From the NCBI GenBank assembly GCA_028534125.1, contig CM052816.1, positions 9,054,001-9,118,000 on the forward strand: DNA of 64,000 bases, in the 5' to 3' direction. Under the pieces are notes generated by a model. The model saw only the letters and a list, made by a program, of their open reading frames with translations. It was not told the origin of the DNA and searched no databases. The stretch comes from Lama glama. Its lineage: Eukaryota. The position numbers and the translations under genes are program-made. Of this stretch, positions 18,701 to 64,000 are shown piece by piece (the first letter of the stretch is position 1; the number at the start of each line of letters is the position of its first letter).

Positions 18701-20810
18701 AAAAAAAAGTAAATTCCGTTTCCTTCTTTTAGGAATACTCAGTGCTGCTAATGGGACAAGAGCTCCTTACAATTTCAGAGAGAAGGGCAAGCCACTTATT
18801 TCCTTATTTCTCAGTTCCGTGAAAAACAGATGAGCCATCTTTCTCTTCTGTCATTTAGTGCGAAAGAGCTCCCATAAATACATATTTTCCCTAGAGATAG
18901 TGGGAAGTGACAGGCAGTTCACATCTTTACTCGTCGAAAGCACACGGATGCAAATACGTGGCCCACTAGGTGGTCAGGTCTACCTAATATTGCTCTTCTC
19001 CTCAGCCTGGTGTGAAGCCCCAGCCCCTTTCCAGATGATCACAATCAAGAGTCAAAATGCTTGGGCTGTAAGAGGCAGAGGGAGTCCAGCTACAATCGCT
19101 TGCTTAGCATAGCTATGTAATACACAAAGGAAGACGGCAGAGAGATGAGTCATACAAATACATAGTAAATAAATATATTTCATTTCCATCTCCCTGGCTT
19201 TCGCTTTGTTTTCCTCCCCTCCATGCCAACAGCCCTGAAATGGAGGGAGGGGAAGAAACTGGGTTTGGTCTGACACAGAAGTACTGATTTTTTCGGGCCT
19301 TGCTTCTCAGTTCTAGCTTTTTTAGAAGAAACTTGCAGATTCTTAGCTTAGCAAGACCTCTAATTCAACTCTTCTCATCTTACAATGAGCAATCTGAGAT
19401 CCAGAGAGGAGACGGCGAAGTCATAGACCCAGGGAAGTGAACGTTCCTAGGGGTTCTCCAGTTCAACAACCCCACCTGCTGCTGAATAACCCAGGCAAGC
19501 TAAGCTGGCCCAGTGGCAGGAGGAGGGGCTTGAACCCAGACCTCCCTCTAGGGTGGTGCCCAGGCCACCTGCCCCAGCAGCCCATGGGCAAAGGAATTAT
19601 GTTGAAGAGAAATAGAGTGGGCCTCCTTGTACTTCTTACTGCATTTCTCAGCAGTTGAGGCTCAGCTCAGCAGCAAAATGTCTGGTCCTGGTTCTGCAAA
19701 GCAGTTGCTGCCTCCAGCATGTTAGAAACATTGGCCAAAGGCTTGTCTCTTTTTCCCTCTTTCACAGGATGGCTAGACAGCCTGCAGGTGTGTGAAAAAA
19801 TCAGCCCTGGGCCCATGGGGCTGCCTGCACACAAGAGCGGGCTATTTCACAACCTCCAGATCCAAAGGTGGCTTCCTGATGATTTGTTTATCAAACTGCT
19901 GGTTCCTATCCCAGGGCCTGCCCACATCCACCCACCCACCAGCGGGAGGGCCAGCCTCCCTGCTCCTCCCAGCTCCAGGGCAAGCTGGGCCTTCCATGGC
20001 TTTCCAGCTGTGTGCCGGGAGGTCTCCTCAGAGCCCCCACAGTCAGACAATGGCCACACTACTGCTTCCTAGGCCTTCCCAGGCATTGCTAGAAGGAGAC
20101 AAGCAGCCTCCCCACAGAGGCGAGTGACGCTGCCGATAAAACATTAGTTAAATTATCATGAAAAGCTGAAGCCATATCCTTGTGCCTAGGAGCACAGAAA
20201 GGACCAAGGAGGAGTCTGGGGGCCTGGTGTCCACCCCGGGCCAGGCTTCCTTCCTCCTTCGAGGCAGCCCCAGCGCAGGCTCCTGCACCTCCCGCCCCCA
20301 CCCTGTTCCCATGGCAAAGGAGAGGAGGACCCACTTACTGCTCGTGTTCATGGTGATGCCTTCGCACTGGGTCTTTCATTCAATACGTAGGCTCCCGTTG
20401 CTTTTTAAATCTTCAGATCTTCCGACCTCACTCATCACCTAGAGGGTGAAAGGGCAGTCCAATGCTAGCTCTGTATCCTCAGGTGCTGTCCCCTCTCCGT
20501 CTTGGCTGTAGCCACTGGCCTTGAAGGCGAGTAGACTAATTGGCGCAGGTGAGAGCAGGAGGGAGGCGGAGGCAGAGAGGATACGGGCGCCTAGGTCCTC
20601 CAGCTCCTGGAACCTGACTGCCCGGCAGAAGCCAGGCTGGCAGCGCCTGCTCGCGCACACCCCCGACTGTTGCAGCCCAGCAGCTCGGGAGCCCAAAGGG
20701 GGTGTGGACCACAGGGAGGCAGGGCGGGGGCAACGCGCGGGGCGCCCGGCTCAGCTGGGCAGCGCGTCCCCGCCCGGCTGCCGCGAGCAGCGGCCCGCCC
20801 CAGGACTCAC

Positions 20811-20938
20811 CTCTCGGCCAGTGTCGGGAGCCAGAGGCCCCAGTCCGGGCCCCTGCGACCGGCTCATGAATCCTGGTCCTCTTCTGGGGTCTCGAATTCC
20901 AAGGCGAGCGAAGCGAAATAGGAGAGCTCGACATCCAT
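20811..20938 (-). other. Candidate first exon (ATG-containing part) of an unidentified minus-strand transcript
   Basis: Consensus donor GAG|GTGAGT at 20811/20810; ATGs at 20938 (strong Kozak, atcATGG), 20934 and 20867; inside the CpG island. No protein homology recognised. Confidence 0.5.
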
Positions 20939-20985
20939 GATGCGGGCTCGCGGCGTGGCTGCGCGGGGGGCGCGGCCGCTCGCTG

Positions 20986-20999
20986 CTGCCACCTGGTGG
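20986..20999 (-). promoter_or_regulatory. CTCF core motif CCACCAGGTGGCAG
   Basis: Matches the CTCF core consensus; identical in the paralog at 54850-54863. Confidence 0.75.
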
Positions 21000-22964
21000 A
21001 CGCGCCGGTGCGTATCCAGGCCCCGCCCCGCCGGGGTTTCTCCCTGGGTCCTGGGGAGTGAAGGGGGATGGATGGGGCCCTTGCGTCCTGGGGCCAGCAA
21101 GGGGATGCCTGAGCGCTGTTTCCCCTCCCTGAGTACTGGGTTCTAAAAGCTAAACAATGATAGGAAAATAGACACGTCATCGGGAGGGGCTGTGAAGAAA
21201 GGATTGGCGTTGCAGGAAGACAGTGTTAGCTTCTAATCCTGCTTGGAAACAGATGGGTGTAGTCTGGTCTTGAGCAGATCAGTGCCGTCTGCGTCATCTT
21301 CCTCAAGTGTGGAAGGTGGCGGCTGGACAAGTGGGTGAGACATTAGGGGTTAAGAAGACTTAACTTCTGTCCCTACCTCCCCCTTCGTACCCCTTATCAC
21401 TGATTCATTTGTTACAGTTGTTTATCATCTCTCTTCCCCATGAGACTGTTAACTCTATCAAAGTATGGGTCTTATCCGTAAGATTCATTGCCAGGCCCTC
21501 AATACCTAGAAAAGCACCCAACACGTGGTAGGTATCGATAAATATTTGTTGACAGAACGTCCTGGGTCTTCTCTGGGTCTAATATCACGAAGCCCTCAGA
21601 GTAGAAGGTCTAGGAATCCCCACCTTGAAACACTTCCCTGTCTGAGGCAAAGAGCTGGCATGTGGCCTCATGACTTAACCTCACTGGTTCACCCAGTTTT
21701 GTACGGCCACTAACTCTTGTCCAAAAGTTGTTTTTTCCCCCTATAGTTTTTGTAGGCGTGTATTACAGAAAACTTTATTCTGATTTTCTTGGCCATGATT
21801 AATTCAGTGGGGTGAGGTTCTTTATATTTCCCTGACTACCTACCCTGTCACCTTGTGAACCTAGTTCATGGTCACAGAAGCATCACTTTTGAGTAGAAAA
21901 ACAAGACTGAAAGGCCACATAGTCCCTGTCTACAGAATGACTCTGGTTAGAGTATGCATAGAATCAAAAAGCTGTGAACACATCCCCAACTTATAGATAA
22001 GGAAACAGTGGGTCAGAGAGGCTGAGCTACCTGCCCTCAGACACACAGCATCTGGTGGCAGAACTGAACCATATCTTCTCATTTCTAGCGTAGTCCCTTG
22101 TGAGAGTGAGTCAGGGCACCAGAATCTGGGATGTCAGGGTAAGGGTAGATAGCCCTCCTCTTAAAACTAGGAAAAGAACATCTTTTTTAGATAAACACAA
22201 TGTTTCTGCCTTACACAGAGTGAAAAAATTTGATATGGCTCTTGACCCCAAGACGTGATAGCAGTTAAAGGATCTTTAGATAAATTGAAGGGTCATTGGA
22301 TTTGAAACACATTTCAATAGCTTTTTAGGAATTTCTTTGAGTGGAGGAGGTGTAACTGCAGCCTCCTCACAGTTTTGTTTGTATAACAATCACCTGAGAG
22401 ATCTGCAAAAAATGGTTCCTGGTTCTCTGGCTCTGCATGTTAAACAAGGATCCCAGGTGATTCACAGACCCCTCTTTGCTTCTGAAAAGGCCTAGAACAG
22501 CTTTCAAAACACAGTAGTGCTTAATAATTATTTAAATGAGTCCCAAAGATCTCGTTAGAGACCTCCTACATTTCTCAGATTGAGATTCCTTATCCAATCC
22601 CCAAGTTACATGTACCTTGCTAGGTTCTACTATTTAGAAAAAAAGATATTTTTTTCCCTGGGAGAAAGTTCATATAAATTAAATATGTAAAATTAATAGG
22701 CCTGTTCACTGAACACACTAAGTTATCACCCAAAGCCTCAAGGTTTGCAGAACTTTTCAGAGTTCAGGTTTACATAGTCAAATAAAAGCATATTTTTCAT
22801 TCATTAATTCATTTACTGAGTATCTACTTTGTGCTTGGCCCTGTGCTGGCAGGTGGGGACAACAAGACAAACAAGGACCCTGCCCTCCTAGAACATAAAT
22901 CCTTTGGTGGGAAGTGGAGGTAGACAACAATTAACTCAGCCAAGTGTGAATCAGGTAAACCAGG

Positions 22965-23190
22965 TGGTGGCTTGGTTAAGAGCCCAGGAGCACTTACCAG
23001 CCTGGCTGATTTTCAATCTCAGCTCCATCACTTCCAAGCAAGAGACTCAGCCTCTGTGAGCCTCATATTCAACTGTAAAACGGTTATAATACGGTGCCTA
23101 CCTCACGGAATGCTGTGTGTGTGAAAGTACTCAGTGTAATGCTTGGCAAGTGAAGACTTGACATATGTTAATTATTAGTATCATCCCTCA
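22965..23190 (+). mobile_element. MIR SINE (paralogous to 55520-55780)
   Basis: MIR motifs; shared flank atgttaa...agtatcatc..tcactt in both copies. Confidence 0.65.
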
Positions 23191-25139
23191 CTTATACTCA
23201 CCCCCTAAGACAGTCTTGTCAATTTTCTACTGACCTGTTGGGCTTTTCCACAGAGCAGTGGCCATGAAAATATGCCTCAGAGTTCTCCAACGACAGAGGG
23301 CTTAACTGACCAGCTCTTCATGTCCAGGGTTCTTTTTAATACCTAACCCAGCGGGCTGCTGATGAGTTCAGCTCTTTGAAGGGACCATGGATCTACTCTA
23401 AAAAGCCTCGATTAGCTTCTGTTGGGGAAACAATCTCATTTTCCCTGCGCAATTTCAAGGATGGGGAGAAAAGGGTTAAAAGAAGCTAGAGAAGCTATAC
23501 GGGTGAGGATGTCCACAACAATGGAGGCAGCCGGGAAAGACGCAGGAGGAAGCTGGGGGTGGGATCCTCGGTGGAATGGGCTGTGAAAATCATCAGGAAA
23601 GCAGAATCCTGGCTCTGCCCTTGCAAGAGAATGGAGCCGAGACCCGAAGAGCAGAGGGTCCCTTTGTTTGGAAGTTTGTTTTGAACTTTAAGACTCCAGA
23701 ATGGAGATAAACAAGTCTCCCTCGGAAATAGTCAAATGCTCCTGGGTGTTGGAAAACCAGCTGGCAAAACCATTGGGAAACAGACTTTCCACCTTCTTCA
23801 GGGGGAAAGAGGAAAGCTGGGGGGCCAGTTTCACTCCGAGTGCTCCCCCTATAACGCTTCTCTTCTTCTCTGACTTCCTGTCCCCACACAGAGTGGTCTG
23901 GCTCCCCTCCCCACTCTCTGCCCCCTCATTGCTGTTATGGACGGACACAGCCCTAGACCCCCAGCTTTTCTTTCTCATTGCCTTTCTCGTGTGCCCTTCC
24001 AGCTCCATCCTACACGTCTGCCCTCCACATCAGCCTGCCTCCTGTCCACTCCTGCGCTGCTCCCGTCCACTCATGGGTACGCTCTCATCCATCCTCCTCT
24101 TGAACACAAAATCCTTCTGGCCTGTGAGGGATGGGAAGGCTAGGCAGAGGTGCTTGTGATCTGAGAGTTTCTACTTGCCATCCCTAGGCTGTTTGAATAT
24201 CTCACCAAGAGGGAGTACTCCCTTTATTTTTATTTGAAAAATAGTATGCAGTTGTTAACATGAGACAGATCTACATGTGGTCGTGAGGGAAGATTTTCAT
24301 TGTATGTGATTAAATAAGAAAAGAACATTGCAGAAACATATATATAGTATGTTCTTTGGGATAATGTATATATGTGGGTATATTTTATTATGTATGATAT
24401 AATACATATATAATATAGAGAACATATAGGATATATACAATATATCATCTAAAATAGTGAAATCATTTTTCTACAAATGGGATCCTATGTAGGTGCTACG
24501 TGTATGTATACCTATAATGCATAGAGAAAGACCTGGAAGGGCACACTCCTAATTACCAGGCCCTTGGATTAAGGTAAGTTTTTGGATTATGTAGGTTTAA
24601 CCAAGTCAGCTGGACAAGTGTTAGATGTGAGAGATCTGGGCAGACATTAATTTGAAGGACTAAGGTTTTTAGTTCATTTTTTCATGCTTTCAACAACTTC
24701 TGATTGTTTATTCTATGCCAGGCACCATGTTGACCAGAAATAGGGGGAGGAGTCAATACATAAGTAAACACAGACTTATGATTACAATCTGCAAAGTAAG
24801 AGCGGAGGGGCAATCATGGACACCTGGAAACAGGTGTCTTCCTCAACGGCTGGCATTTGAGCTGAGGCTGAAGAGGAGGGAACCACCATGCTGATTTGGT
24901 GTAGGGCTGGGGGAAGGAGAGAGTGCAGAACTAAGTGGCAAAAAAGAGTCAAAGGTCCGTGGGGGAGGGAGGCCAGGACACAGGTGTGCCGGCTTCTTTG
25001 TGGAAGAGCTGAGTGGGAGGCACATAGTCAAGACCACATTCAGGATTAACAAACCTGGGGTGGAAATGGACTGGGAGGTCAGAGATGCTGCTTACAGTCC
25101 TGATGCAGCAGGATGTCAAAGCCTGGGGAGTGGGATACA

Positions 25140-25345
25140 GTGGTCTGGAGTAGAATCCCAGCTCTACTCATCACAGCTGTGTGACCTTAGGCAAGTGGCT
25201 TAACCTCTCTAGGCCACAGCTTCTGAGTGTGTGAAGCAGAGATCATAGCAGTGCCTACGTCACTGTGAGTGCTAACAGCAGGGAGACATTAACAACTTAG
25301 CACAGTGCCAGACATCTAGTAAATGCTCACACACCTGGCTTTATT
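25140..25345 (+). mobile_element. MIR SINE
   Basis: aatcccagctctact...agctgtgtgaccttaggcaagtggcttaacctctct. Confidence 0.8.
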
Positions 25346-25829
25346 CACTTTGGAACAACCTTACTGATTTGCAAGGTGACCCTCTCTGGGCCAGAGTTTC
25401 CACATTTATACATGGAGGCTTGAAACAGATTGAGTCCCAAGGTTCCTTTCACTCTAAGCATCTGAGTGTCCTGTGGCTGGAGCTGGGCAAGTCTGACCAT
25501 GTTCTAGGCTGGTGCAGGGCCCTTGATCCCCCAGGGGCACCGCTGGGTTGCGCCGAGACCCAGGTCCTGAGTGGAGAGTGCTCTTCCCGCCAGGAAATGC
25601 ATGGTGCTTCCTAACTCCATGTCTGCACCTCTTTGCTTCCCAGGGGAGCCCTGAAACCTAAGGAATTGGCAGGTCGCAGGCTGGTTTTTCTAGCTGAGGC
25701 AGCTTTGTCATAGGGCCATGCTTTTCCTCCTGTTCCTCATACTGTTTTGTGGAGAAATGTTTAAGGAAAATTAAAGGGGTTCCTGCGGTCTTTGGGAAGC
25801 TTCTGGGGGGAACAAAGGAACTGGCTTTG

Positions 25830-26010
25830 AGGCCAGCGGGTTGGAGGCTGCAGCGCTGGCCGTGGGGACGCTCCGGGCAGACGGTCCCACCGCGGGGCTC
25901 TGCGGAGGCCTCACGCTCACATCCGACCGCAGCCTGAACCTCCTTCCTGCCAGCAGAAGCAAGGAGCTGGGGTGGAGCCAGCTCCGGATGGGAATCCGGG
26001 AGTCGTGAGG
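25830..26010. promoter_or_regulatory. Small CpG-rich patch (possible enhancer or promoter)
   Basis: Local cluster of CpGs in otherwise CpG-depleted DNA. Confidence 0.35.
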
Positions 26011-28479
26011 GCTGGACTAGGGCCTGCCATTCCCTTGGCCAGCCTCCTCTGGGCTATTGCAGTGTTGGTACACCCAACCTAAAAGGGACCTCGGTGACCT
26101 TCTATCCGACTCTTCCACTTTACGGATTAAGGGACTGACTCTTACTCATTACTCATCCATAATTTCTCTTCCACCTGTCCTTCTCCTGGCAGAAACCTCC
26201 TCTGCTGTGCTTCCCATGAATAAAGTCAGTCATTTCCTTAAGATCCCCTCAAGTCCCATCTGAGCCCAGAGCAGTCAGTAGCAGGGGCCCACCTTATTTT
26301 ATATCCCCCCCTCCCCTTTGGCTCCCTGCACAGAGGGACTCCTTGGCCTTTCAGTGGGTTTGTCCATCTTGGAAACTTCACATATGCTGTTGCCTATACC
26401 TTGTTTGCTTTTCTCCTGTTTCTTTGCAAAGCTGGAATCTGCTTATCCCCAAGGTCTCAGCTTAATTGCCAAGTCCCTAGAGAGGACTTTGTGACCAGCT
26501 AGCTCAGGTATTCCAGAGAAGGTCTTTACTTAATGTGTGGAGTGAAAGCCCCTCAGACAACTTGAACTTATTCATTTCTTCTTAGAGTTCAGTTACATTA
26601 ATTCCCATGCCCTCTCCCCCAAAATCTGGCTCTCCTCCCTCTATTCGCTTGGCTCTTTAAGACCTAAATTCTATCTCTGAATATGGTCTTCCACTAAATC
26701 CTTCAGAATCTGCTAAGGATGCATATTTCTCCTAGCTTTTAAGGATTACAGACAGGTCTTCACAGCCATGCAGCTGGAAAGTCCAGTGCTGCCCTGTGCA
26801 TGAGAACAGGACAGGGAATCAGAAGACCTGGGTTCCAGCTTTGCCCTCCCTTCCTAGCTGCATGGCCTTGGGCAACCAGTTAATCTTTGTTGTCTTAATC
26901 TACTTGGCTGTAATGAATAACAAGTCCATTAACATTATTATAAAATATATTATAATTCTCCCTTTCCTGTGTGTATCTCAGGGTTGTTCCAGGAATGAAA
27001 TGAGAACCTGTGTGCTTTGTAGACTAAAGTCTATGCAAAGTAGGTGGGGATTATTTCCCCCTCACTCATTATAACTTAGTTATTTACACAGAATTTGCAA
27101 AAGGTGACATCATATGCCCTGCTATCCAGGACGGCCACGGAGAAGGGCCAGCAGATCCCAGCGGCGTATGTGCACCAGCCATCTCACCATTACAGTGTGT
27201 GCCACTGCCTGGAGGGTCACACTGCAATCCACAGGCCTTCTGCAAGCACCTCATGACCTCTGAAAGGGCATCAAACTTCCACTTGTGAGAGAACCCTACA
27301 CGTTCACTACCTGGGATCACAGAGTTTTAGACTGTCATTACTGTGAGAGTTTTTAGAGTTCATCAAAAACAAGTTCCTCTTTCTACAGAATCCAAAAGGC
27401 GTTGGGAATTGGCAAACAGCCTGCAGCGGGCTAATGGTGAGGACGGCAGTGCTGAGGCAAGGTCTCTGGGTTCTAGGTGACCATTTGGTTGCCAGAAATT
27501 CCCACGGCTGATTCTGCTTCCATTTGGGGGTTGCATCTAAGAGCAAAGTCCTCCTTCTGACAAAGAGGAGCATTCACAAAGTGGGCAGAGAGGAAGTTCC
27601 ACTGCAGCATTTTACTGCTTACTCCATTGCACTATTTTACTTGTAATGCAAAAAAGAGTGGGAAACAGTTTAAATGACAATTCGTAGGGAGATAGACTGC
27701 GGCACATCATACAAAGGAGTGTTACACGGCGATTAGTAAAATGAGGTGGGCGTTTATATAACCTGGATAGCTATTCAAGACCTGTTTTCTGGTGTGTGTG
27801 TGTGTCTGTGTGGTGTGGGGGGTGGGGGGGCAAAGACAAGTTGCAGGGCCATCACATGTAGTATGCTACAATTTATTTAAATGAACCTGTAAAAATCACA
27901 CTATCTTCTCCATGTGTACAACACATATGCATTTTAAGACATAAGAAATGGTCTGGAAGGCCTCCCATTTAACTGATAGTAATAGTATTCAGCTCTAGTG
28001 GGACAGCGATGGAGAACTAACAAAATGACCAGGGTTGGAGGTGGGCTCCAGGGGCACGAGCCTTAAGGACCATGTTTTCTTTCATTTAAAAAAAAGAAAA
28101 ATGTATTCACAAGTCCTTGGGTGATTAAAAATTGATAACAGTTTAAAAATTAGCCCCAGGCTCTACTGAGCCCTTCCTCTCGGCTGGCAGGGCCGATTCA
28201 TGACTGACTAACCTTGAATGGGTCTCTGTGACTAAAGGGAAGGGAGGGTCCACTTTTCATCGCCATGCTGTCTGGTCACTTGACCCCTGCGGGCTCCCTT
28301 GGCCTTTGGAGGCCTGTCCCATGCCAGGTCCTGAGAGTGAGCACAACGTGGCCAGAGTCCAGTGCGTCAGGGTCCTCCTGCAACTGACCTCCTGGTGACT
28401 CAACATGATGGACGGGTCTGCCCAGCACAGTTGACACAGAACCATGAAAACTGAGCCTGGAGGCTCCAGTCTGAATCTT

Positions 28480-28990
28480 AGCCCTGCCTCCACCTTCCAG
28501 GGAGATGCTGGGCGAGTGCCTGCACCACAGCACATGGCCTTGCCCGGGCTCTGACCGCCTCTCCTGGCATCTCCCCCTCATTCACTCTGTTCCAGCCATG
28601 CAGGCTTCCTTTCTGTGCACCCCGCCTCCCACACTTGCCCCAGGCATTCATGGTTGCAGTTCCTTCTGATCTGACCATCTTCTCTCCAATGTCCATGTGA
28701 CTGGCTCCTTCTCGTGGTTCAGGTCTCGTCTCTAGTGAACGTTCCCGCCTAGAGAGGCCTTCCAAGTCACCTCCCCATCAGTCCCTCTCTCACATGTGCT
28801 GTTTTAAATTCCCCTGGAGAATGGAACACTGCCAGAAGTTATGTTGCTCAGTTTGTTCATGCACTTTTATCCACTGTGTGGCCCACTGGAAGTTACAGGC
28901 AGTAGGAGCAAGTACCTGTCCTGTCCTCTTCTGGAGCCCAAGCACCAAGAATGGCGTCTGGCACATAGTAGGTGCTCAGTAAAGATTACG
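28480..28990 (+). mobile_element. L2 3' end
   Basis: ttcactctgttccagcca...ctagagaggccttcc...gtctggcacatagtaggtgctcagtaa. Confidence 0.75.
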
Positions 28991-29859
28991 GGAATGTGTG
29001 ACCTTTGCAATCCCAGTGAGAAGAGTGCACTTGGAGAAGAAGGACCCAAGTTTCCTTCCAGTCCGCTCCTGTCAGGAGCCAAATCCCAGAGTCAGGCAGG
29101 ACTGGACGAAGGGACAAGCCCTGTGGCTCCTCTTCCAAGTCGGCCATTACAAGGCTGAAGTGTGGGCCTGTGACTTAATGCCCAGATGCTCCAATCTGCT
29201 CTTCTAGAAGATGAAAGGATTGGGCTAGATGCTTCTTTTCAACTCCCAGCTTTTACTATGCTATAAAATATAAATGGTTTGTGTCCACGTGCTCAAATCA
29301 AGATACATGCTTGAATACACTTTCTTTAATATGCCCTAAATATCATTTTAGTGTGTTTTTTTTTCCATTTTCCTCCTTCTCATAAAAAATGGAATGCAGA
29401 GTGTGTGGCAGGATGGTCTCTGGTGCACTGTAATACGGAGCCCTTTATGCAAAATTCATTATTGAATCAAAGGCTGCAGTTTTCTTTTTCTCATTTGTTT
29501 CTCTGCTCCCCAAACAATTTTCAGGTTTCACATCTTTATTAGTGTTCTTTGGTCCTTTAGCAGAATGAAAATTCTGTGTAAATAATCATGGGGGCTGTAT
29601 TTTGAATATGACTAAGTGGGCACACAGAAGAATATTGAATGTTTGTTCCAAAACCCCTCGTTCCAGCACATGGAGTGGGGAGTAAGGGTGAGCTCCTGAA
29701 TTTCCATGCAGCAGAAAGGAGCCGGGTCAGCCTGGCCTTTGGGGTCAGATTCTGATGTCAGTACTGACCCTCCACTTCTGGCTGGAGAGTTAACTGAGGA
29801 GGTGCCTTTGATTTGGAGGCTGGAGGCCAAACGCGTTATGAAGCCTCCTATTGCTGAGA

Positions 29860-30070
29860 GCTTGCTGTGTTCCAGGCACTGGGCTAAGAGCTTTGACTTC
29901 ATTATCTCCTTTAACTTCAATTCTTTCAAGTACTCTGTGACTTGGGAATTGTTATCACCCCATTTTTTCAGATAGAGAAACTGAGGCACAGAGAGGGTAA
30001 ATCAAGTAGGAGTGGAACTTAGATTTAAACCCAGGCTATCTGAGACCAGAGCCTACAGTCTTTCCCACCA
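29860..30070 (-). mobile_element. MIR SINE
   Basis: ccaggcactgggctaagagcttt...cccattttttcagatagagaaactgaggcacagagagg...atttaaacccagg. Confidence 0.85.
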
Positions 30071-30621
30071 CCAATACTGGTACATGCGTAGTACAGGATC
30101 CTATACCTATTATGCAGTACAGGTCTGGCTCTGCTAGGACAAGTGCAGTTAATAAAAATAATCCCTAACATTCAAGTTTCTAATCAAGATTTTTAAAAGT
30201 AGCAATCAATATCAGATTTAAAAAAGATCATAAGCAAGTCAGGTATTATTTATTCCTTAGATAAACACACCAGGACTTGCTATGTGCGAGGAGAATGTAT
30301 ATACTTTGTTGCCCCAAATAGAGAGAGTCCCTGCCCTCCTGGGGATTATAGTCATTTGACATCAGAGGAAATGAAAGCTGAGAGATTTTGTATAATGTGC
30401 CTGTTTCCATTCAGCTTGTCTAGGGCAGAACTGACATTCAAATCTAACCACAGGACCCCTCAGCCACTAAATTTCCTGCTCAATGGGAAGTAGTAACTCT
30501 CAGGTGTCCAATTTGAACAGCTGCCTATCATCTCTTCCTTTCCTGTGATCTATGGGAACAGTTGAATGATCATTCAATAAATTGCCAAAGATATGGATCA
30601 GCATGAGTGGACTGAATAGAG

Positions 30622-30828
30622 CAGGGTTTCTTGACGGTGGCACCGCTGATATTTTGGGCTGGATCATTCTTTGCGGTGGGGGCTTTCCTGTGCATTGTAG
30701 GTGGTTTAGCAGCATCTCTGGCCTCTGCCCACTGGAAGGTAGGAGCCAGCTGTGACAACTAAGAATGTCTCTGGATATTATCATATGTCCCCCTGGAGGC
30801 AAAACTGCCTTAGGTTTAGAACCACTAG
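30622..30828 (-). mobile_element. MER20 (hAT-Charlie), near full length
   Basis: Reverse complement of MER20: cagggtttct...tgtgcattgtagg..gtttagcagcatctctggcctctgcccact...tgtgacaac...aatgtctctgga...tgtccccctgg...gaaccactag. Confidence 0.9.
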
Positions 30829-31050
30829 AATTGAGTAACGAAAAATAAAACACTCACCAAAAAAAATCCTCCGTTGCTCCAAGCCAATGATAGTTTTGCA
30901 TACATGGGACTTACATCATCAGAGGTTAGGAACCCCGATCTCATTCAGTTAAAATAATCCTCGGAGCGACCGGGAAGCCTGGAGCTGTGGGAAGACCATA
31001 GTTTCCTCAGGTGAGATTGTTTCCTCTGCAGCTTAAATAACCTGCCTGTG

Positions 31051-32257: not shown

Positions 32258-32292
<35 letters not shown>

Positions 32293-34130: not shown

Positions 34131-34139
34131 CCATCTTTC

Positions 34140-53604: not shown

Positions 53605-54412
53605 GTGAGTTAACTTATTTACATGATGTGAGGTAAGGATCCAGCTTCATTCTCTTGCATGTGGCTACACAGTTGTCCCAGCACCACTTGTTCAAAGAGT
53701 ATTCTTTTCTCCATTGATTTGATATCCTAGTGGAAAGTTAACTGACCACAGACACACAGGTTTATTTCTAGACTCTCAATTCTATTACAGTGATTTATCC
53801 TTAGATAGTACCACACTGTCTTGATTTCCATTGCTTTAATAATAACTTTTGAAACTGAGAAGTGTGAGTTCTCCAACTTTATCCTTCATTTTCAAGATTG
53901 TTTTGGCTATTCTGGGTCCCTAAAACATCCACATGAATTTTAGTATCAGCTTGTCAATTTCTAAAAAAAGATGAAGCTGCTGGGATTTTGACAGGGACTG
54001 TATCGAATCTGCAGATTGATTGAGGCATTGCCATCTTAACACTATTAAGTCTTCCAAATCCATGAACATGAGGTTTTTCCATTTATGTAGATCTTTAATT
54101 TCTTTCAACAATCTTTTGTAGTTTCCAGAGTGTAAGTTTTGCATTCCTTTTGTTAAATATATTTCTAAGCATTTTATTATTTTTGATGCTTTGGTAAATT
54201 GAATTGTTTTCTTAATTTCATCTTTGGATTGTTTGTTGCTAGTGCACAGAAAATAACTGATTTTTGTACATTGTTCTTAATATCGTGAAAACTAGCTAAA
54301 CTTGTTTACTACTTCTAATACTTTTTCTAAAAATTGGATTCCTTATGATTTTCCACTTACAAGATTATGACACCTGAGAATCGTTTTCCTTCTTCCTTTC
54401 TAACTTGAATGC
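53605..54412 (-). mobile_element. LINE-1 ORF2 fragment
   Basis: ORF 53920-54144(-) QNLHSGNYKRLLKEIKDLHKWK; antisense L1 motifs gttgtcccagcaccacttgtt. Confidence 0.9.
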
Positions 54413-54485
54413 CTTGTCTGTCCTTCCGTCAGTCCTTCCTTCCTTCCTTCCTTCCCTTCCTTCTCTCTCTCTGGCCCCGGTTTCC

Positions 54486-55306
54486 TTTAAATCTTCAGAT
54501 CTTCTGACCTCACTCATCACCTGGAGGGGTGAAAGGGCAGCGCTAGCTCTGTATCCTCAGGTGCTCTCCCTCCTGCTGCCCGGTCTCCCGTCTCCCGTCT
54601 TGGCCACTGGCCTTTAAGGTGTGCGGACTAACAGGTGCAGGTGAGAGTAGGAGGGAGGAGGAGGCAGAGAGGATACGGGCGCCCAGACCCTCCTGCTCCT
54701 GGGACTCGACTGCCGGGCAGAAGCCAAGCTGGCAGCGCCTGCTCGCTCACACCGCCTCACACCCCGACTGTTGCAGCCCAGCAGCTCGGGAGCCCAAAGA
54801 GGGTGTGGACCACAGGGAGGCAGGGCGGGGGCAACGCGGCCGCTCGCTGCTGCCACCTGGTGGACGCGCCGGCGCGTAATCCAGGCCACGTTCTGCCCAG
54901 GCTTCTCCCTGGGTCCTGGGGAGTGGCTGGGGCCTTTGTGTCCTGGGGCCAGCAAGGGGATGCCTGAGCGCTGTTTCCCTTCCCTGGGTACTGGGGTATA
55001 ACGGCTAGACGATGATAGGAAAACAGACACGTCATCGGGAGGGGCTGTGAAGAAAGGATTGGCGTTGCAGGAAGACAGTGTTAGCTTCTAATCCTGCTTG
55101 GAAACAGATGGGTGTAGTCTGGTCTTGAGCAGATCAGTGCCGTCTGCGTCATCTTCCTCAAGTGTGGAAGGTGGCGGCTGGACAAGTGGGTGAGACATTA
55201 GGGGTTAAGAAGACTTAACTTCTGTCCCTACCTCCCCCTTCGTACCCCTTATCACTGATTCATTTGTTACAGTTGTTTATCATCTCTCTTCCCCATGAGA
55301 CTGTTA
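54486..55306 (+). repeat. High-identity duplicated segment 1, copy B (CpG-island paralog lacking 237 bp)
   Basis: Aligns with 20403-21451 except for the absence of 20738-20974. Confidence 0.97.
54850..54863 (-). promoter_or_regulatory. CTCF core motif CCACCAGGTGGCAG
   Basis: Identical to 20986-20999. Confidence 0.72.
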
Positions 55307-58228
55307 GTTTTATGAAAGAATAGATTGTGCCTGTTCACTGTACTCACTTTTCCTTCCCAACCTAGGTTAGTGAATGCCTGCCCTACAGTTGGTGCTTAAT
55401 CAATACTTGTTGAATCAATCCCTCAATTCATCTTCAGTGTTTTCTCCACTCTCCATGCTCCAGGGCTCTATAAAAGTATATTGCATTATTCTTTGCCAAA
55501 GCACAAATTAGGGAAACTCCATGGTTCCCTGGTCAAGAGCCCGGTGCTGGACTCAGCCTGCCAGGTTCTGACTCCTGGCTTCATCACTTGCCAGATGGAT
55601 GACCTTTGGAAATTTACTCAGCCTCCCAGGGTCTCAGATTCTTCACCTATAGATGGAGATAATGACAGTACTTACCTGACTGGGTGGTTGTGATGTACTA
55701 AATGAAGAAACTCATTAAAATACATAGTATAGTGCATCCATATGTCCTTCAATGTTAACTCTCAGTATCATCGTTCACTTGCACCGATCCAGCACCTCTC
55801 TCCTCGTGCCAATCTTTTAGACCTTCCTCAGTACATTCCTGCCCGGTTGCATTTTCCTGCCTGGGAATGTATGGTGAGCTCTGCTGCCAAGCAGATTTCC
55901 GGGTGTGGTCTTTCCTCTGAGCCAATCACAATGTTGTTAAATAAAACTAGTCTGTATGGCTGTGTCCATCCCCTTGGGGAGAAATACTCAGACAGGGACC
56001 AGGCAAAGAGGAGCAGGCTTCTGGTTGCTTCCCTTCTCGGTCTCCAGCCCTTCTCTTGCAATTGCAGTAAGCTCTAGCCCTGCCTCTTTATTTCACAGGC
56101 TTGTGTGGCCCTGAATGAAAGTGCTTTCACAGCAGCATAAATTCATATAGGAAGGCAACATGGTCTTGAGTCCTCTCTCTCTATTCCAGGCTGAGATTAA
56201 CTTCCTTCTCTGGGACCATTTTCCCCAGTTGGGTGACCTTGGCTTAATGAAGCACACCCAGTGCTTCCCAGCAACTCACAATTAACAAAAAATGCTTCGG
56301 GGATCTTTCTGATTTTCTCCTCCCAATCAGTCCATAAAACTAACAAGGCAGGGGGTACATTTTATAGCTGAGGAGCCCCACCCTTGGATAGCAGCTCAGC
56401 CTCTCAGCCTCATACTGGGGCAGGGCAGCTCCAGACTTGAATGTGGGCCCCACACCTCTTTGTCTAGGGTACTTTTCACCCTGCCCAGATGGCTGTGATG
56501 AATTAGGCTGTTGAAACCTGGACCATCTAAAAACCTCAAATAACTTCAAATGAGAAAACAGTCTTCTCTCCCCTGCACAATTATAAGGACATGAAGGGGT
56601 CAACAGATATAAGATGCTACACCCATGAGGATGTCCACATCGATTGGTGGCCACTGAGAGGGCCACTGGGCTGGGATTCTCCATGGGGCTCAGTTGAGAA
56701 AGCTGTCAGAAGACTTGTATCTTGGGTAATTCCTGTCAAAGGAATGGAATCAAAGGATCTCTTTGTTTAGAAGTTTGTTTTGATTCCAGGAAGGGTGAGG
56801 AACAACTCCCACCCCCAAAAGGAAAATATTCCTAGACTTTGGAAAACCACATGGAAAAACCATCAGGACACACTTTCTCTACCTTTACCTCTGGGCCAAC
56901 TTCACCCATGGCTGTCACCTCACCCTTCGTGGGCTGCCCTCACTAAGGCTCTCTGCTCCACAGAGAACTCCCATCATTCCTGCTTGAGGGGTCCAGCGAT
57001 AAGCCAGGTGAAACAGGCCAAGTCAGAGTTGTCACTCTCACAATGTCAGGTGATTCCAGTGCCAAGAGTGAAGCAGTGAGCAAATTAATACATGGGATAA
57101 TACATATGATCCTATCAGGAATACACACACATACACACACGCACACACACACACCCCATGTGTATATAACGTATGTGTGCACAATCTTTCTCCCCGAAAT
57201 GGGATCATCTATACAAGTGTCTGGAATGCAGAGCCAGAGGTCTGGAAGGACACTCCAAATTGCCAGTAGTTGCCTCCAGAGAAGGGACTAAACTTTGGTT
57301 GGGGGTGAGCTGGTTTGAAAGGGGACTTGCACTTTATAGCCGTATGCAGTTTGAACTTTTCTATGCATGTGTTACTATGGCAATGACGCCATTTTAAGCA
57401 GAATGCCTGACTTTCCTGCAGGATGGTGCTTGTCTCACCCCTCCCCCTCAGCAGGGGCTCCTTCTCACCCTCCACCTTTATAAATACGACATCTGAAACT
57501 CACCTCTGCACCCTCCACCTTTCCGCTCTCTCTCTCCCTGTATCCTCCTGAATCTGCTGGACATTATTCTTAAGACCTCCTGTCACAGTCCGTCCCTGTT
57601 CTCATATCCCTTTCCACCTGCCTTGCCTCCACATCCAGCCTGACTCTGTCACCCATTTTTGTGACTCTCTCACCAGCCCCTGAGTCTCTTGCCCCAGTGT
57701 CTCCCTGCCACGCCTGCTTTGCCAGCTGGGAACTGTCTGCTGTCCCTGCTCTGTTTCAAGGCTGCTGGAAGAAAGACATCCGCTCCCATGACTGGGCCCC
57801 TGCAAACTCCTAACAGCCAGCCCAGGCCAGCACTCACTATGACCAGCAATTCTCTTATTCCTCTCTAATCAGCTTCTTATCACTCTGCCCCCATATACCC
57901 CTTTGCCGCCCTTCTCCCTGTTTATATTGTGGCCTTACCTACGACCTACACCAGCCACCCATCTCTTTCCTTCATATTCTCCATGCTTTCACTCATCACA
58001 TTGTCCTGCTGGCCCACCTCAGAAGAACGCTGTCTCCAAGACTGCTTCCCTTCCTTGCTAAGTGGAGGCCTCCAGTCACTGGAGGAATGGCTGCAGGGGA
58101 GTTGCCGACGGCTTGCTATTCAAAGTGCGGTCCAAGGGCCAGCGCACCGGCACCACACAGAGCCCCTGCTAGAGCTCCCCGCCCTGCCTGGGCCCGGGGT
58201 GAGGACCTGCACTTCACCAGTGCCCAGG

Positions 58229-58728
58229 TGTATTTGTTACCTGAGGCTGTTGTAATTACAAACCTAATGGCTTGAAACCACACAAATTTCTTATCTTAAA
58301 ATTCTAGACATCAGAAGTCTGAAGTGGGTTTTACTGGGATAAATAAAATCAAGGTGTTGACAGGGCTGTATTCCTTTTGGAAGTTCTAGGGGAGAATCCA
58401 TGCTTCGCTTTCTCCAGCTTTTAGAGGCTTCCCACGATCCTCGGCTCATGGCCTCTTCTTCCATCTAAAACCAGCATCATAGTATCATCTTCGGACCACT
58501 TCCTCTGACTCTGACCTCTGCTTCTAGTTCTGTCTTTACATCTTCTTCTGACTCTGACCCTCCTACCTCCCTCTTATAAGGACCCTTGTGATTACATCTG
58601 GATAATCCAAACAGTCTCCCCGTCTCAAATTCCTTATCAACAAAGTCTCTTCAGCCTGGACAGGTAACATATTCTCAGGTTCTGGGGGTTAGGGCATCTT
58701 TGGGGACCACTGTTCTGCCTACTACATC
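58229..58728 (-). mobile_element. MLT1-type solo LTR inserted into a MER5-like element (about 58110-58770)
   Basis: aatggcttgaaac...agaagtctgaa...aaaatcaaggtgttgacagggctg...cttataaggacccttgtgattacat...ttctgcctactaca; MER5-like halves on both sides. Confidence 0.85.
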
Positions 58729-59319
58729 AGAGATTTTACATCCATTGTTAACGTTTGAGAAGCCCTGGCTACCCTATTTAAATGGTTTTTCTTTCCTACT
58801 TTCCCTGGCTGCTCATGTAATGCTGAAACCCTTCAAGTTAAATGCATGTATGATAAAACTGTTCTGCTTGTTTGTGTGACCCCTGCACATGTGTGGTTCT
58901 GCGTAGGCTGAAATCATTCTGATCTTTATTGTTAGATAGATGTTGACTGAGGCAGGACTTGAGGGTTGGGCACTGTGTGTATGTCTGGTTCATGTCTTCC
59001 TGGATGTCTTAAGTGGTGAAAGCTGCTGTATGTGCTGTTGCTGGCTGGAATGTTTGGGAAAATCCAGCTCTGCCAATTACTAGCAATAAGACCTTGGAGA
59101 AGTCACCTGATTTCTCTCAGACAATCTTTTCATCACTTACAAAAACGTCAGGTCCAACCGCTATGTCACGGATGTGGTGTGAGGATGTAATGAGATGGAG
59201 GGATTTGTCAACGGGGAACTCCTGCACAATTGTAAGTCTTATTTGATTCTTTGTGGATCTTGAAGAATAAAAGGAACTCTTTCAGACTCTTTGCATTGAG
59301 TCCAAACTCCCTGCATGTG

Positions 59320-59333
59320 CTGCCCTCTTGTGG
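59320..59333 (-). promoter_or_regulatory. CTCF core motif CCACAAGAGGGCAG
   Basis: Consensus-type CTCF core, paralogous to 31051-31064. Confidence 0.65.
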
Positions 59334-61336
59334 TGAAGGCTTTTAATTAACTTTGGTGTGGATCACAAGATAAGAAAGCAGAAATGGGCATTCACATCCT
59401 TGCTACACCTGACTGCCCTTCATCCCCGCAAAAGAAACCTCTCGGGGATTATTTGCCAAAGTCTGGATGCACATTAGAATCACCTGGAATGTGTCTAAAA
59501 GAAGACCTCCAATCACCCTGCTACCAGAGATAATGATACACCATGGTTGGGCAGGATCTAAGCATCTGAATTCTGGTAAATCTCTACCAGTGGATAGAAT
59601 GTGAGTGGTCTCCTGATGTAAGCTTGGGATCTATTAACGGAAGTACAGTAAGTGAAACAAAGGAGGGACAGCGCCTCGGAGCTGAACGCAGAAGACGAAG
59701 CTGTGCTGGACAACAGGATGGAAATCTGGGTCCCCACTTCCAGAGCAGCTTGGACAGTTTTCACAGGAGCAAGACCTGAATGGTGTGGGGACTCAAAGCT
59801 ACATCACCTAAGGAAGAGGGGAAAGCACTGAAGGGGAAATGGCTGACGTGCCCAAGGTCGCCCAACAAAATTTATCTACAAAACACCAGGACAGAGAGAG
59901 AGAGAGAGAGATACACATTTCCTTAGATCACAAAGCCAAATATCATGATGAAAATAGTTCAGTATGAGATTTTCTTTCTTAAGTAAACACCTTGTAAAAT
60001 TCCTGTCTGCTGAAAATATTAGCCAATTGAGGAGAAAGGACAGACATGCAGCTAGGGTGCCTCGGCTGGATGCCTTTGCCCGAGGTAACAGAAAGGAATC
60101 TCTCCGATTATCTCTGAGGACAGGCAGATCTGGTTTTACTTGGAACCAAGGTTTTGTCTCTGTCACAGCTGACGGGCACATCCTGCTCATGTAGGATGCC
60201 TCTTCCTCCTCAGAGTCCTAACCGCTCCAGACGCGAGGCGAGCATGCCTAAGACTAGTGGAACAGTGACCTGTGTGCGTGCCTATGCACACGCACACTCG
60301 CACGATTTGCACAAGTGGAAAACACCCATAAACACCTTGTTATACACTCACAGCCCCTTTGTGAGGTAGAACTGCTTTGTTACCTCCACTTAATTATTAT
60401 TGTTACTGTTATTTATAAAGGAAGAAATGGGCTAAAGAGCATACAGCTGGAGAATGGCAGAGCCCGGATTTGAATTCAGGTTGTCTGCCCACAAATCTAG
60501 TGCCTAAGTTGACCAGGGAGGTAAGTTGATCAGAGTGGCGGTAAGATCTGTTTGTTACCCTTCTGGCCAGTAAGGCTGTCTTGCCAATTCCTCTGCAGAG
60601 AGAAGAGGACAAGCCCAAAGACTGGGAGGTGCTCTGGTAGGGAAGGACGTGTCCCTCAGTGTAATCCATGTAGCCAATCGTGCCATCTTCTCTCGGGTAG
60701 ACTGAGCAGAGGTGTGGCACCTTCAAGAAGAGAAGAGGCTTCCTCTGCACCTTCTGGATCCCAGCACCAGTGAGGACCCTCTAAATAGGTTGCTGGTCAG
60801 ATGGAGGCACTAGATCAGGGGCAGAGGGTGTAAAGCCACGTCTGCAAGACCACAATCCCAGAAGACTGTGCAGCTGTTTTCACAGCATCAGACCCAGAAG
60901 ATGATCCTCGGCTTAAAATTTTCCTCCTCTAGGGGCTGTAACCAGCTACAGGCAGCACTGTCTGAAGGCTATCAAGAAACTGTAGGGAGTAACGGGATTT
61001 GCTATTCCTGGAATGTGCCTCCTTCCTGCTAAGATGCTGTGGACATTGTGCCTGGCAGTCTCCAATTGGTCCTTCTGTGATGCTCGGTACAAAGACCATC
61101 TCTCAAGTCAGGTCCAGAGTATGTCAGCTCGAAAGTGACCCTCCACGACCACTCCTGACACACTGTTCTTATCTAGGCACCTCTCCTCCCTTCTCTTCTT
61201 CCACCTTCTCTTTGTTCCTATCTTTTTGTATTTATTATGGCAACACCATGAAACACTGTGGCTGGAAAAGTTGCTATAACACAGAAGTGTATACGAGAAA
61301 AAGACATCATGTTCCTTTCCCTTCACCCCCTCCCTC

Positions 61337-62629
61337 CACCTGGCTACAGGAGGCAGGGGTGTTGTCTGCTCTGGGCTCTGCTGACCCCTCATCCAGCCAA
61401 GGGCCAGGGGCATGGGGAGGGCCCTGGATGTGCACCTGTGGAGTGAATGAACAAATCACCATCATCAGGCTGATGTGGTCTCCTTCCTGTATGTTCAAAG
61501 TCACATATATAGTGTGCTTCTGTACATAAGTGGGGCCACACTCTATCACTGTGTGCAAGTTTCTTCAGTTTTTGCATCATAATACGGCTTGGAAATCTTT
61601 CCTTGACTCTCCATCTAGACCTGCTTCATTCTTTTTCACTGCTGACTAAATGCACCATCAGTATTTGACTGTTTTCACATTGATGGGCATTGATGTCCCT
61701 TCCATTTCTCACTATTTCCAGCCATGCTGCTTGCACGGCCTGTTGGTGCCCGGGTGCGAGTGTCTCCAGAAAAGACACCCGAGGTGGCCTCGCTGGATGG
61801 AAGGGCACCTCCTTCCTGTCCCATTCACTGGGTCAGATGCATAAAACCTGAACTTTTCTTAAAGGTAAGTTGGACTGAGGAGAAATTCCTTTCCCCGGGA
61901 GTGGTGGGGAGTGTCAGACCTCGGCTTGTATCCTGTACTTGGTGCATGCGTGCACACACACACACACACACCCTCCTGTCCCAGCCTGCTCACTGGGGAC
62001 CCTACTTTTAAAACATGAACTGATTAGTTTAGCATGGTTCGTGGAAGAATGATGAGCTGAGAGTCCTGAGGTCTGAGTTCTCATATAGGCTTTGCCACAA
62101 AACTGTCTGTAAGTGTTGAACACATGACTCAGTCTTTATGGGCCTCAGTTTCTTTATCTTTAACATGGGCTGGGGAGTGGACCCATTACTATAAAGACAC
62201 TTTGACTGCTAACCTTTCAGGGTGAGGCGTCAGTTGCCTGCCCTTGACCTAAGGTTGGCTGTGGGAGCCAAGAAACAGGAAACTGATGTTTTAGAAAGAG
62301 AAGTCGGCAGCCCCTGGTGAGGTCAAAGCCGGCAGTGTGATGACCTCTGCCCTGGTCAGCAGCCCCACCTCCTCCCCAGAGCTGCTGGGCCAGTTCCTCG
62401 GCTGACCCTTGGCAAGAGGAAAGTGTGGGTAACTCCTCACCCCTGGCGCAGTGACCTGTCTGCACCTCCAAGGGCGCCCAACTATACCACACAGACACGG
62501 CTGGGCCCCCCGGCAGAGTGGTGTGGACCAGGGCCCTGCAGTCCCTTCCCGGGCTCCAGTCCTGACTCTGCTGTGTCCTGTCAGCCGGGTGAGCTGGGGC
62601 GAGTCACCAGACTCTTGGTGTCCTGATCT
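61337..62629 (+). repeat. High-identity duplicated segment 2, copy B
   Basis: Aligns with 31645-32948. Confidence 0.98.
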
Positions 62630-62859
62630 TTAAGTAGGGGGTGAAGATTAGATGTGGAATTTTCACATAAGCATGTAATAAGAGCTCCGTCAGCATTTCT
62701 TCTTCTTCTTCTTAATGTCCACAACTAACACAGTGCTTAAAGTAGGCAACCAGTAATGTTCACTGAATAAATAGGTCACTGATGACTGAACCAGAAACTC
62801 ACAGGCCTCCATCTCTGCTCTCTCCATCACCCGTCCTCGGGCTCATCTGAACCGAAGTA

Positions 62860-64000
62860 CTGTTTCCTGAACTTGTCCCCACTGTCAATCCTAGCACCTT
62901 TGCTATGGCTTTTTTCTTCCCACCTACGTGTGCCTGTCAAAATTTCATCCTTCAAGGGCCACAGTCACACGCCACCTCCTCCATGCAGCTTTCTTTGCTT
63001 TTCCCGTTGGTACATGCTAACTTCCTCCTCATATCTCCAGTATGTGTCTATATCCCCATGAGCCCCAAGTCTAAGTTTCCAGTAGAGGCCTTTCCCTTGA
63101 ACTCTAGACTTGGGTATCCTACAGCCTGTTCCACGTCCTCCAGTGGATGGAGAATAGACTTCTCATACTCAACACGTCAACCCAACCAATCAGCCAAGCT
63201 TGCCCCAACCCCCGGATGTCTCCTCTCCAGTCATGGCTACCATGCTCCTTGCAGGTGCTCAGGCCCAAACATGGGGAACCCCCCTCACTCCTCCTTCTCT
63301 CACACCCTGTGTTTCATCTGCAGACAGTTCTGCCTCCACCTCAAAGTAAGTCAGAATCTCGCCACATCTCACTGCCTCCGCTGCCCCCACCCTGGCCCAA
63401 GACACACTTCCTCTTACTTGGATTACTGCAGTCGCCTCCTGCTCCTACAATTCTTTCAGATCATAAATCACATCATCATTCTTCTGCTCAAACCGCTGCA
63501 GTGGCTGCCATTTCACTCAGCGTGACAGCCACGCCCCCACACTGGTCTAGCAAGCTCGGCATCCTTGGGACGCTGATCCCTCTCCCCCCGCACTGGACGG
63601 TCTTTAGTTATCCTTTGGACCCCTCTTCACCTTTCTCTCCCTTGTTCTGCTGGATGCTGGCCTTCACAGGCGTCCTCAGCTCAGCTCTCTCATCCTTTGG
63701 CTTCCAGTTGTGCTCAGTCAATGGAAGACAGGAGGTGAGAGGATGGAGCATTTATTCCTCTGGCCCCTGTGCATACATGGCCTTGGCCAGCCTGTGGCTG
63801 TGTTCCTCTATTAATGATACAGCTCCTGTTGTCAGCTCTGGCCTGCAGCCATTTCTTGCTACGTTCTGACAGCCACTCTCTCCTCTTGTCCCTTCAGCCT
63901 TAGGGATGCTAACGACTTTTTAGTCTTCCCAGCCCTAGGGTGCCTCACCATCCTTGCTGGTTCACTTTAACCCTGCCCACATTTTGGTGAACAGTTCTTT
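62860..64000 (+). mobile_element. L2 followed by an LTR33-like LTR (from about 63600), paralogous to 34140-35000
   Basis: L2 motifs (gtgctcaggcccaaac, ttcttctgctcaaaccgctgcagtggctgcc) then cctttggcttccagttgtgctcagtcaatggaag. Confidence 0.65.

What the first reader, a model, noticed from the sequence alone, without database searches (positions are those of the whole stretch)
20403..64000. Hidden ancient direct duplication: about 20.4-35.4 kb is collinear with about 54.5-64 kb
Beyond the two obvious duplicated patches, diverged but ordered anchors line up. MIR plus flank at 22965-23190 matches 55520-55780. Apparently non-repeat sequence at 23390-23800 matches 56520-56890 (gaggatgtccaca; ctttgtttRgaagtttgttttga; ttggaaaacca...aaaaccat). 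An L1 tail at 24470-24560 matches 57185-57270. The CTCF block at 31045-31195 matches 59315-59460. L2 followed by an LTR33-like element occurs at 34140-35000 and 63255-64000. Offsets run from about 28 to 34 kb, with unit-specific insertions and deletions. Inference: a promoter plus roughly 10-15 kb of upstream DNA was duplicated after MIR/L2 activity but before camelid SINEs, since the SINE at 31312 is only in unit A.
Basis: partly seen in the sequence, partly recalled or inferred. Interest (0 to 1): 0.7.

Follow-up and report, generated by a model that had tools for sequence, protein, structure and literature searches.

The report
Ancient ABLIM3 promoter copy, repeatedly homogenised
A very old duplicate of a gene's start region (probably ABLIM3) sits 34 kb away and has mostly decayed, yet two non-coding patches are still 98-100% identical, which suggests the copies kept overwriting each other until recently.

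Summary
The duplication is real. Eight blocks of 20394-34938 align in order, on one strand, with 54476-63999 (4,114 columns). Background identity is 66% (K2P 0.48, roughly 80-160 My at recalled rates). Three shoulders are 87-88% identical. Cores are 98% (846 columns) and 100% (281 of 281). Tract edges cut through single L2- and MIR-like repeats (71/71 then 60/100; 80/87 then 35/56), which is the footprint of repeated interlocus gene conversion. Unit A is a CpG-island promoter with two 5' exons, probably ABLIM3; that rests on recall plus unchecked scan notes placing ABLIM3 to the left and SH3TC2 to the right. Unit B cannot code: it stops 43 nt before the ATG and has lost the exon-1 donor by a 237-bp deletion. 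It keeps its CpGs and both CTCF-like motifs. No second genome or read-level data were obtained, so concerted evolution across species, and any function of B, are inferred. The scan had not reported this on other DNA, and no paper on it was found.

The parts
20394..34938 (+). Unit A, alignable span (the true unit may run on to about 54470)
54476..64000 (+). Unit B, direct copy, still aligning at the window end
20339..20438 (-). Inferred exon 2 of the host gene (probably ABLIM3): AG acceptor, ATG at 20351, 13 coding nt (MNTS plus 1 nt), GTAAGT donor
   Evidence: sequence; gene name from recall and unchecked scan notes
20811..21000 (-). Inferred exon 1 inside a CpG island (20600-21100: GC 0.725, CpG o/e 0.73); GTGAGT donor at 20810; start point approximate
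20734..20970 (+). 237 bp present in A and deleted in B (junction 54834/54835, CGCG microhomology); removes the exon-1 donor and most of exon 1
54476..54520 (-). B's copy of the first 45 nt of exon 2; acceptor AG kept; ends 43 nt before the ATG
20394..20663 (+). Shoulder 1 (with 54476-54764): 228/259, K 0.132
21015..21169 (+). Shoulder 2 (with 54880-55024): 126/145, K 0.146; A's GC-box (recalled Sp1 motif) is degraded in B
21170..21450 (+). Core 1 in A: 281/281 identical to B; the last 71 bp are the first part of an L2-like fragment
   Evidence: repeat label recalled
55025..55305 (+). Core 1 in B
31646..32610 (+). Core 2 in A: 596/607 and 235/239 identical to B either side of a (CA)n of unequal length and an 82-column dip at 90%
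61338..62292 (+). Core 2 in B
32611..32947 (+). Shoulder 3 (with 62293-62628): 290/334, K 0.147; its edge falls inside a MIR-like element
23311..23795 (+). Diverged anchor with no third match in the window (with 56453-56885), 70%
20987..20999 (-). CTCF-like motif, proximal, A
   Evidence: consensus recalled
54851..54863 (-). CTCF-like motif, proximal, B (identical to A)
31052..31064 (-). CTCF-like motif, distal, A
59321..59333 (-). CTCF-like motif, distal, B; 58/69 identity around the motif against 122/201 in the rest of the block
31300..31434 (.). SINE in A only, with 12-bp target-site duplications; its family member at 42086-42157 scores as tRNA-derived
34134..34938 (+). L2-like plus LTR-like composite shared with 63246-63999 (61%)
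   Evidence: family labels recalled
53627..54463 (-). Old L1 ORF2 fragment and (TCCT)n repeat abutting the start of unit B (junction)

Best explanation
An early placental-mammal tandem duplication broke inside the 5' UTR part of exon 2 and copied the promoter, exon 1 and at least 14.5 kb of upstream DNA of ABLIM3 into the interval towards SH3TC2. The copy had no coding sequence from the start. Most of it drifted to about 66% identity, with insertions and deletions in each unit. Two islands, the promoter and a 1.3-kb element 10.6 kb upstream, stayed similar enough to keep pairing ectopically, so interlocus gene conversion overwrote one copy with the other again and again. The tracts shrank with time: about 87% shoulders (K 0.14), 98% cores (K 0.018), and one perfect 281-bp tract. 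B lost its exon-1 donor late, since both flanks of the deletion are still 98% identical. The likeliest reason these two islands survived is that selection on promoter, CTCF and enhancer-like sequence slowed their divergence, after which conversion fed itself. SHOWN: homology, order, strata, tract edges inside repeats, deletion, motifs. INFERRED: gene name, ages, conversion as the mechanism, any function of B.
For: Identity is far from uniform: longest identical run 282 against a maximum of 61 in 2,000 permutations; SD of 100-column windows 0.151 against a maximum of 0.053. High-identity tracts continue in register into 60-65% flanks. One L2-like fragment is 71/71 identical up to 21450 and 60/100 after it; one MIR-like fragment is 80/87 then 35/56. 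Old repeat fragments are not expected to be held at 100% by selection. Three separate shoulders agree (K 0.132+/-0.025, 0.146+/-0.035, 0.147+/-0.023). B is present in independent data: 17 of 24 listed runs hold half or more of its sampled words (0.84-0.95; 5 coded organisms). B-specific shoulder 31-mers are 8.7% of the stretch, and 8 runs listed at 0.92-0.95 in studies P1 and P2, plus X5 and X10, exceed the 0.913 ceiling expected if the shoulders were not real. Hints that B is constrained: CpG loss in the promoter shoulders is about symmetrical (8 shared, 9 A-only, 6 B-only); the distal CTCF-like region is better kept than its block (Fisher p 0.0003, window chosen after the fact); 4 of 7 CTCF-like matches fall in the two pairs (2.4 expected, 1 of 100 shuffles reached 7). 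Theory for tract loss and persistence: PMC3924837 passages.
Against: One genome only, so the defining test (paralogues closer within species than orthologues between species) was not run. No G000 is held. The metagenome scan gave 2 chance hits and the viral scan none. No read-level data were obtained, so the perfect 281-bp core could be partly a polishing effect. Shoulders at 87-88% could come from purifying selection alone. Repeat anchors by themselves are not diagnostic. The direction of conversion is unknown. B has lost the GC-box and the donor, which argues for decay as a promoter. The ages use recalled rates. The gene name rests on recall and unchecked AI notes.
Confidence: 0.8

Rival explanations
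1. Purifying selection alone: both copies are functional regulatory elements, and the islands are simply conserved since the duplication.
For: 87-88% is in the range of conserved mammalian promoters (recalled). CTCF-like motifs and CpGs are kept in B. The islands coincide with a promoter and with a region about 580 bp from a CTCF-like site.
Against: 281/281 and 98% over 846 columns would be ultraconserved-level. The tracts include L2- and MIR-like fragments and microsatellite flanks, with abrupt edges inside single repeats. It may explain the shoulders but not the cores.
Confidence: 0.06
2. Assembly or polishing artefact: the old duplication and the shoulders are real, but the cores were made more alike by collapsed reads.
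For: 281 bp of perfect identity is the size that short reads cannot span. Word sharing cannot test this, because A supplies those words. No read-level check was obtained.
Against: Reads only cross-map if the copies were already nearly identical. Core 2 keeps 15 substitutions and a different (CA)n length. B-specific core words are 6.1% of the stretch and the two best runs hold 0.95, marginally above the 0.939 ceiling.
Confidence: 0.06
3. Unequal crossing-over (expansion, then contraction, or double crossovers) produced the mosaic, not conversion proper.
For: The repeats are direct and 30-34 kb apart. The equal age of the three shoulders could mark one episode.
Against: There is no third copy or remnant in the window. 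Each island would need paired crossovers a few hundred bases apart, several times over, while the diverged DNA between them stayed intact.
Confidence: 0.06
4. No old duplication: two recent small duplications plus independent insertions of common repeats.
For: The MIR and L2-tail anchors are no closer than unrelated copies. The 'unique' block could not be tested against a repeat library.
Against: The 430- and 270-column blocks score 12,378 and 7,468, with no other match above 1,614 in the window. The 736-column L2/LTR-like composite scores 10,915 against 3,819 for another related element. All 8 blocks are in order and on one strand.
Confidence: 0.02

Closest known systems
BEX/WEX/GASP 5' UTR (BGW) element on Xq22 (Winter and Ponting 2005, PMC1274310; abstract and sections 10 and 12 read)
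   Same: Non-coding 5' sequence of placental-mammal paralogues repeatedly homogenised by interlocus gene conversion while neighbouring sequence diverged.
   Different: There every copy belongs to a protein-coding gene in an X-linked family, with cross-species trees. Here there are two copies, B has no coding sequence, and a second island lies 10.6 kb upstream.
OPN1LW/OPN1MW tandem opsin genes (as described in Fawcett and Innan 2011, PMC3924837; passages read)
   Same: Direct tandem copies tens of kb apart, with conversion strongest in non-coding DNA.
   Different: The opsin duplication is 30-40 My old and nearly all of it is homogenised. Here the background is about 66% and only islands remain; there is no second gene.
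FLNA-EMD inverted repeats and X palindromes (PMC8327919 passages; Caceres et al. 2007 seen only as cited there)
   Same: Repeat pairs kept alike by conversion, proposed to be over 100 My old in the FLNA-EMD case.
   Different: Those are inverted, so crossover inverts harmlessly. A crossover between these direct repeats would delete or duplicate 30-34 kb.
Clustered CTCF sites at domain boundaries (Kentepozidou et al. 2020, PMC6945661; abstract read)
   Same: Several CTCF-like sites near transcription starts, here four in one orientation between two head-to-head genes.
   Different: Here the cluster arose by segmental duplication; binding and boundary function are untested.

Membership tests
Ancient tandem segmental duplication | Collinear, same-strand homology including sequence that is not a common repeat | tested here: met
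   8 of 8 blocks in order; two blocks have no third match in the window; not screened against Dfam
Ancient tandem segmental duplication | Both units present in outgroup genomes | not testable with these tools
   no mammalian genome collection; searches gave nothing
Interlocus gene conversion / concerted evolution | Significant high-identity tracts in register within diverged paralogues | tested here: met
Interlocus gene conversion / concerted evolution | Paralogues group within species in the tracts, orthologues group outside them | not testable with these tools
   no second species' sequence was obtained
Interlocus gene conversion / concerted evolution | Shared polymorphisms between the copies | not tested
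   no read-level data were obtained
Interlocus gene conversion / concerted evolution | Raised G+C in converted tracts | tested here: inconclusive
   island 2 GC 0.52 and core 1 0.49, against 0.41-0.51 in flanks; no outgroup to polarise
Duplicated (paralogous) protein-coding gene | Copy carries the start codon and coding exons | tested here: not met
   B ends 43 nt before the ATG; no match to 19001-20389 in the rest of the window
Recent segmental duplication (1 kb or more at 90% or more throughout; thresholds recalled) | Uniform high identity along the unit | tested here: not met
   pooled background 1290/1968 = 65.5%
ABLIM3 5' region | Coding exons matching ABLIM3 | tested here: inconclusive
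   only 13 coding nt in the window; agrees with the recalled gene structure; scan notes place an ABLIM3 intron 75.7 kb left and SH3TC2 intron 1 11 kb right (unchecked)
CTCF boundary cluster | CTCF/cohesin binding at the motifs | not testable with these tools
   motif matches only
Known structured RNA | Rfam match in either island | tested here: not met
   21000-54400 scanned: 1 hit, the SINE at 42086-42157; the part of island 1 left of 21000 was not scanned

The most novel reading that the evidence does not exclude
Unit B is a gene-less 'shadow' of the ABLIM3 promoter, enhancer and CTCF module, kept across placental mammals between ABLIM3 and SH3TC2. Independently in each lineage, gene conversion has kept it synchronised with the real promoter for about 100 My. 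Selection favours both its retention, against an easy 30-34 kb deletion, and its homogenisation, so that new regulatory mutations spread to both modules.
Probability: 0.2. Interest if true: 0.75.

Novelty: new variant of a known kind. Interest (0 to 1): 0.5.

Why it matters
Long-lived concerted evolution is usually tied to coding sequence, multi-gene families or inverted repeats. In yeast, conversion lasting since the genome duplication is almost confined to coding regions (PMC3924837). Here it seems to have lasted in purely regulatory DNA of a gene-less direct repeat whose surroundings have decayed to about 66%. The locus holds dated layers (about 66, 87, 98 and 100%), so it is a compact natural test of how conversion tracts shrink and of whether selection keeps them alive. 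It also predicts a 30-34 kb deletion or duplication at the ABLIM3 promoter, and mis-mapped reads there. If B proves camelid-only or functionless, it remains a tidy but local example.

Tried and rejected
Whole genome: none held. Orthologues through host contamination: metagenome scan, 2 loci, both only 21-22 bp chance matches; viral scan, 0. Between-anchor homology: 3 of 4 intervals at null level, 1 marginal MIR match; two short extension tests (21450-21700, 23780-24000) also at null level. Third copy: none; best scores 1,290-2,551. A weak nhmmer hit 20301-20730~9417-9867 (score 12.5) is at the null level (11.0) and was dropped. MIR and L2-tail identity as proof of shared origin: rejected. Protein-coding role for the islands: no convincing ORF among 234 stop-to-stop frames of 70 aa or more, judged by eye only. 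Upstream ORFs crossing the exon 1-2 junction were computed with one base too many and are not used. Literature (CC PubMed Central and bioRxiv only): no paper on this duplication in the listings; supplements were not examined and could hold duplication or CNV tables. PMC7318790 and PMC6937214 passages gave no coordinates for SH3TC2-DT. Scan look-ups for look-alikes were empty.
Full report
1. Observation. Self-BLASTN of the window and nhmmer of 70 tiles from 19001-36750 against the right part, the left part and a reversed null show one plus-strand chain between 20.4-34.9 kb (A) and 54.5-64.0 kb (B). HOXD70 alignments give eight blocks with 4,114 aligned columns, about 28% of A's span and 43% of B's. 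The null gave 2 microsatellite rows. Against over-reading: the MIR pair is 68% identical, the same as unrelated MIR pairs in the window, and the L2 tails score 1,085, below several unrelated tails. The case rests on three things: two blocks with no third match in the window (scores 12,378 and 7,468 against at most 1,614); a 736-column L2-to-LTR-like composite (10,915; null maximum 1,685; another related element 3,819); and the order of the blocks. Repeat family names are recalled; no repeat library was available.

2. What was duplicated. On the minus strand, A holds a CpG island (GC 0.725, CpG o/e 0.73), an exon ending at a GTGAGT donor (20810), and a 100-nt exon (20438-20339) ending in an ATG plus 10 nt (MNTS) and GTAAGT. 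I saw no further coding exon in the 20 kb downstream (by eye). This fits ABLIM3 as I recall its structure. Unchecked scan notes put an ABLIM3 intron 75.7 kb to the left and SH3TC2 intron 1 11 kb beyond the right end. If so, B lies between two head-to-head genes and ends within about 11 kb past the window. B begins inside exon 2, 43 nt before the ATG, next to a (TCCT)n repeat and an old L1 fragment (K 0.43-0.49 to other L1s). B keeps the acceptor AG, but lacks 237 bp (A 20734-20970) that include the exon-1 donor, with CGCG microhomology at the join. B therefore cannot encode the protein.

3. Layers of identity. Pooled background is 1290/1968 (65.5%, K2P 0.477; blocks 0.30-0.59, the 82-column L1 tail being the lowest). 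Three shoulders are 228/259, 126/145 and 290/334 (K 0.13-0.15). The deletion flanks are 69/70 and 43/44. Core 2 is 596/607 and 235/239, with a 74/82 dip between. Core 1 is 281/281. Permuting columns 2,000 times never approached the observed run (282 against 61) or spread (0.151 against 0.053). The edges are sharp and in register, and two of them fall inside single old repeats (71/71 then 60/100; 80/87 then 35/56). At recalled neutral rates of 1.5-3e-9 per site per year, this means about 80-160 My for the duplication, 23-47 My for the shoulders, 3-6 My for core 2 and under 4 My for core 1. As an internal scale, SINE copies differ by K 0.11-0.23 and young L1 copies by 0.13-0.14. The SINE at 31313 has a 12-bp target-site duplication and is only in A.

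4. Is it an assembly artefact? 17 of 24 listed runs, from five coded organisms, hold 0.84-0.95 of B's 1,014 sampled words; one may be the window's own source. B-specific shoulder words are 8.7% and B-specific core words 6.1% of the stretch. Ten runs at 0.92 or more support real shoulders; the support for core variants is marginal. This cannot show whether the perfect core was over-polished. No read-level data were obtained, so that stays open, as do transcription of B and shared polymorphism.

5. How it most likely works. Tandem duplication (homology shown, age inferred) was followed by divergence and indels. Ectopic pairing then survived only in two islands. Repeated conversion there gave nested, shrinking tracts (pattern shown, mechanism inferred). 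Theory says conversion stops as substitutions and insertions build up, and that purifying selection can prolong it (PMC3924837, passages). The islands are the promoter and a 1.3-kb element about 580 bp from the distal CTCF-like site. Signs that B is not inert: both CTCF-like motifs persist in the same orientation (4 of 7 matches; 2.4 expected); the distal one sits in a locally conserved stretch (58/69 against 122/201; post hoc); and B has lost CpGs at about the rate A has (small counts). Against: B has lost the GC-box and the donor. Direct repeats that convert should sometimes cross over and collapse. That this pair has not collapsed hints at selection, but only survivors are seen.

6. Comparison. 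It works like the converted 5' UTRs of BEX/WEX/GASP genes (PMC1274310; abstract and two sections), the tandem opsins and the FLNA-EMD repeats (PMC8327919, passages). It differs in being gene-less, direct, and reduced to islands in a 66% background. Promoter similarity normally falls quickly with paralogue age (PMC10100218, passages). CTCF clustering near promoters is described in PMC6945661 (abstract). It meets the within-genome test for conversion; the cross-species test could not be run. It fails membership as a paralogous gene or as a recent segmental duplication.

7. Novelty and verdict. Nine paper searches (listings only, open-licence library) showed no description of this duplication, and the scan had no look-alike. 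Genome browsers may well show it unremarked in self-alignment tracks. Observation confirmed; interpretation partly supported. Best reading: ancient duplication with long-running gene conversion, confidence 0.8. New variant of a known kind; interest 0.5.

Noticed in passing
window 48834-50284: A young L1 whose 5' part is inverted relative to its 3' part (48834-49253 minus, 49339-50265 plus, against the L1 at 1797-3495), the pattern of a twin-priming insertion (interpretation recalled).
   Followed up: no
window 51552-51597 and 52330-52375: 46-bp direct repeat, 96% identical, 778 bp apart.
   Followed up: no
window 20339-21000 (-): The inferred 5' leader holds five ATGs upstream of the main one; the last opens a frame that overlaps the main ATG out of frame.
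   Followed up: partly
window 34829-34841 (-), 47216-47228 (+), 48560-48572 (+): Three more CTCF-like matches with one mismatch; the two plus-strand ones lie between the units and point the opposite way to the four duplicated ones.
   Followed up: no
window 59563-61138: 1.6 kb in B with old repeat-like sequence and no counterpart in A, where only the SINE lies: probably a deletion in A.
   Followed up: partly
window 36300-45000 and 48800-51100: A dense run of L1 fragments of mixed age and orientation between the two aligned spans; it inflates the A-to-B offset.
   Followed up: no
window 12675-12785, 31313-31420, 42074-42157: Three copies of one SINE family, 81-90% alike; one scores as tRNA in Rfam.
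   Followed up: partly
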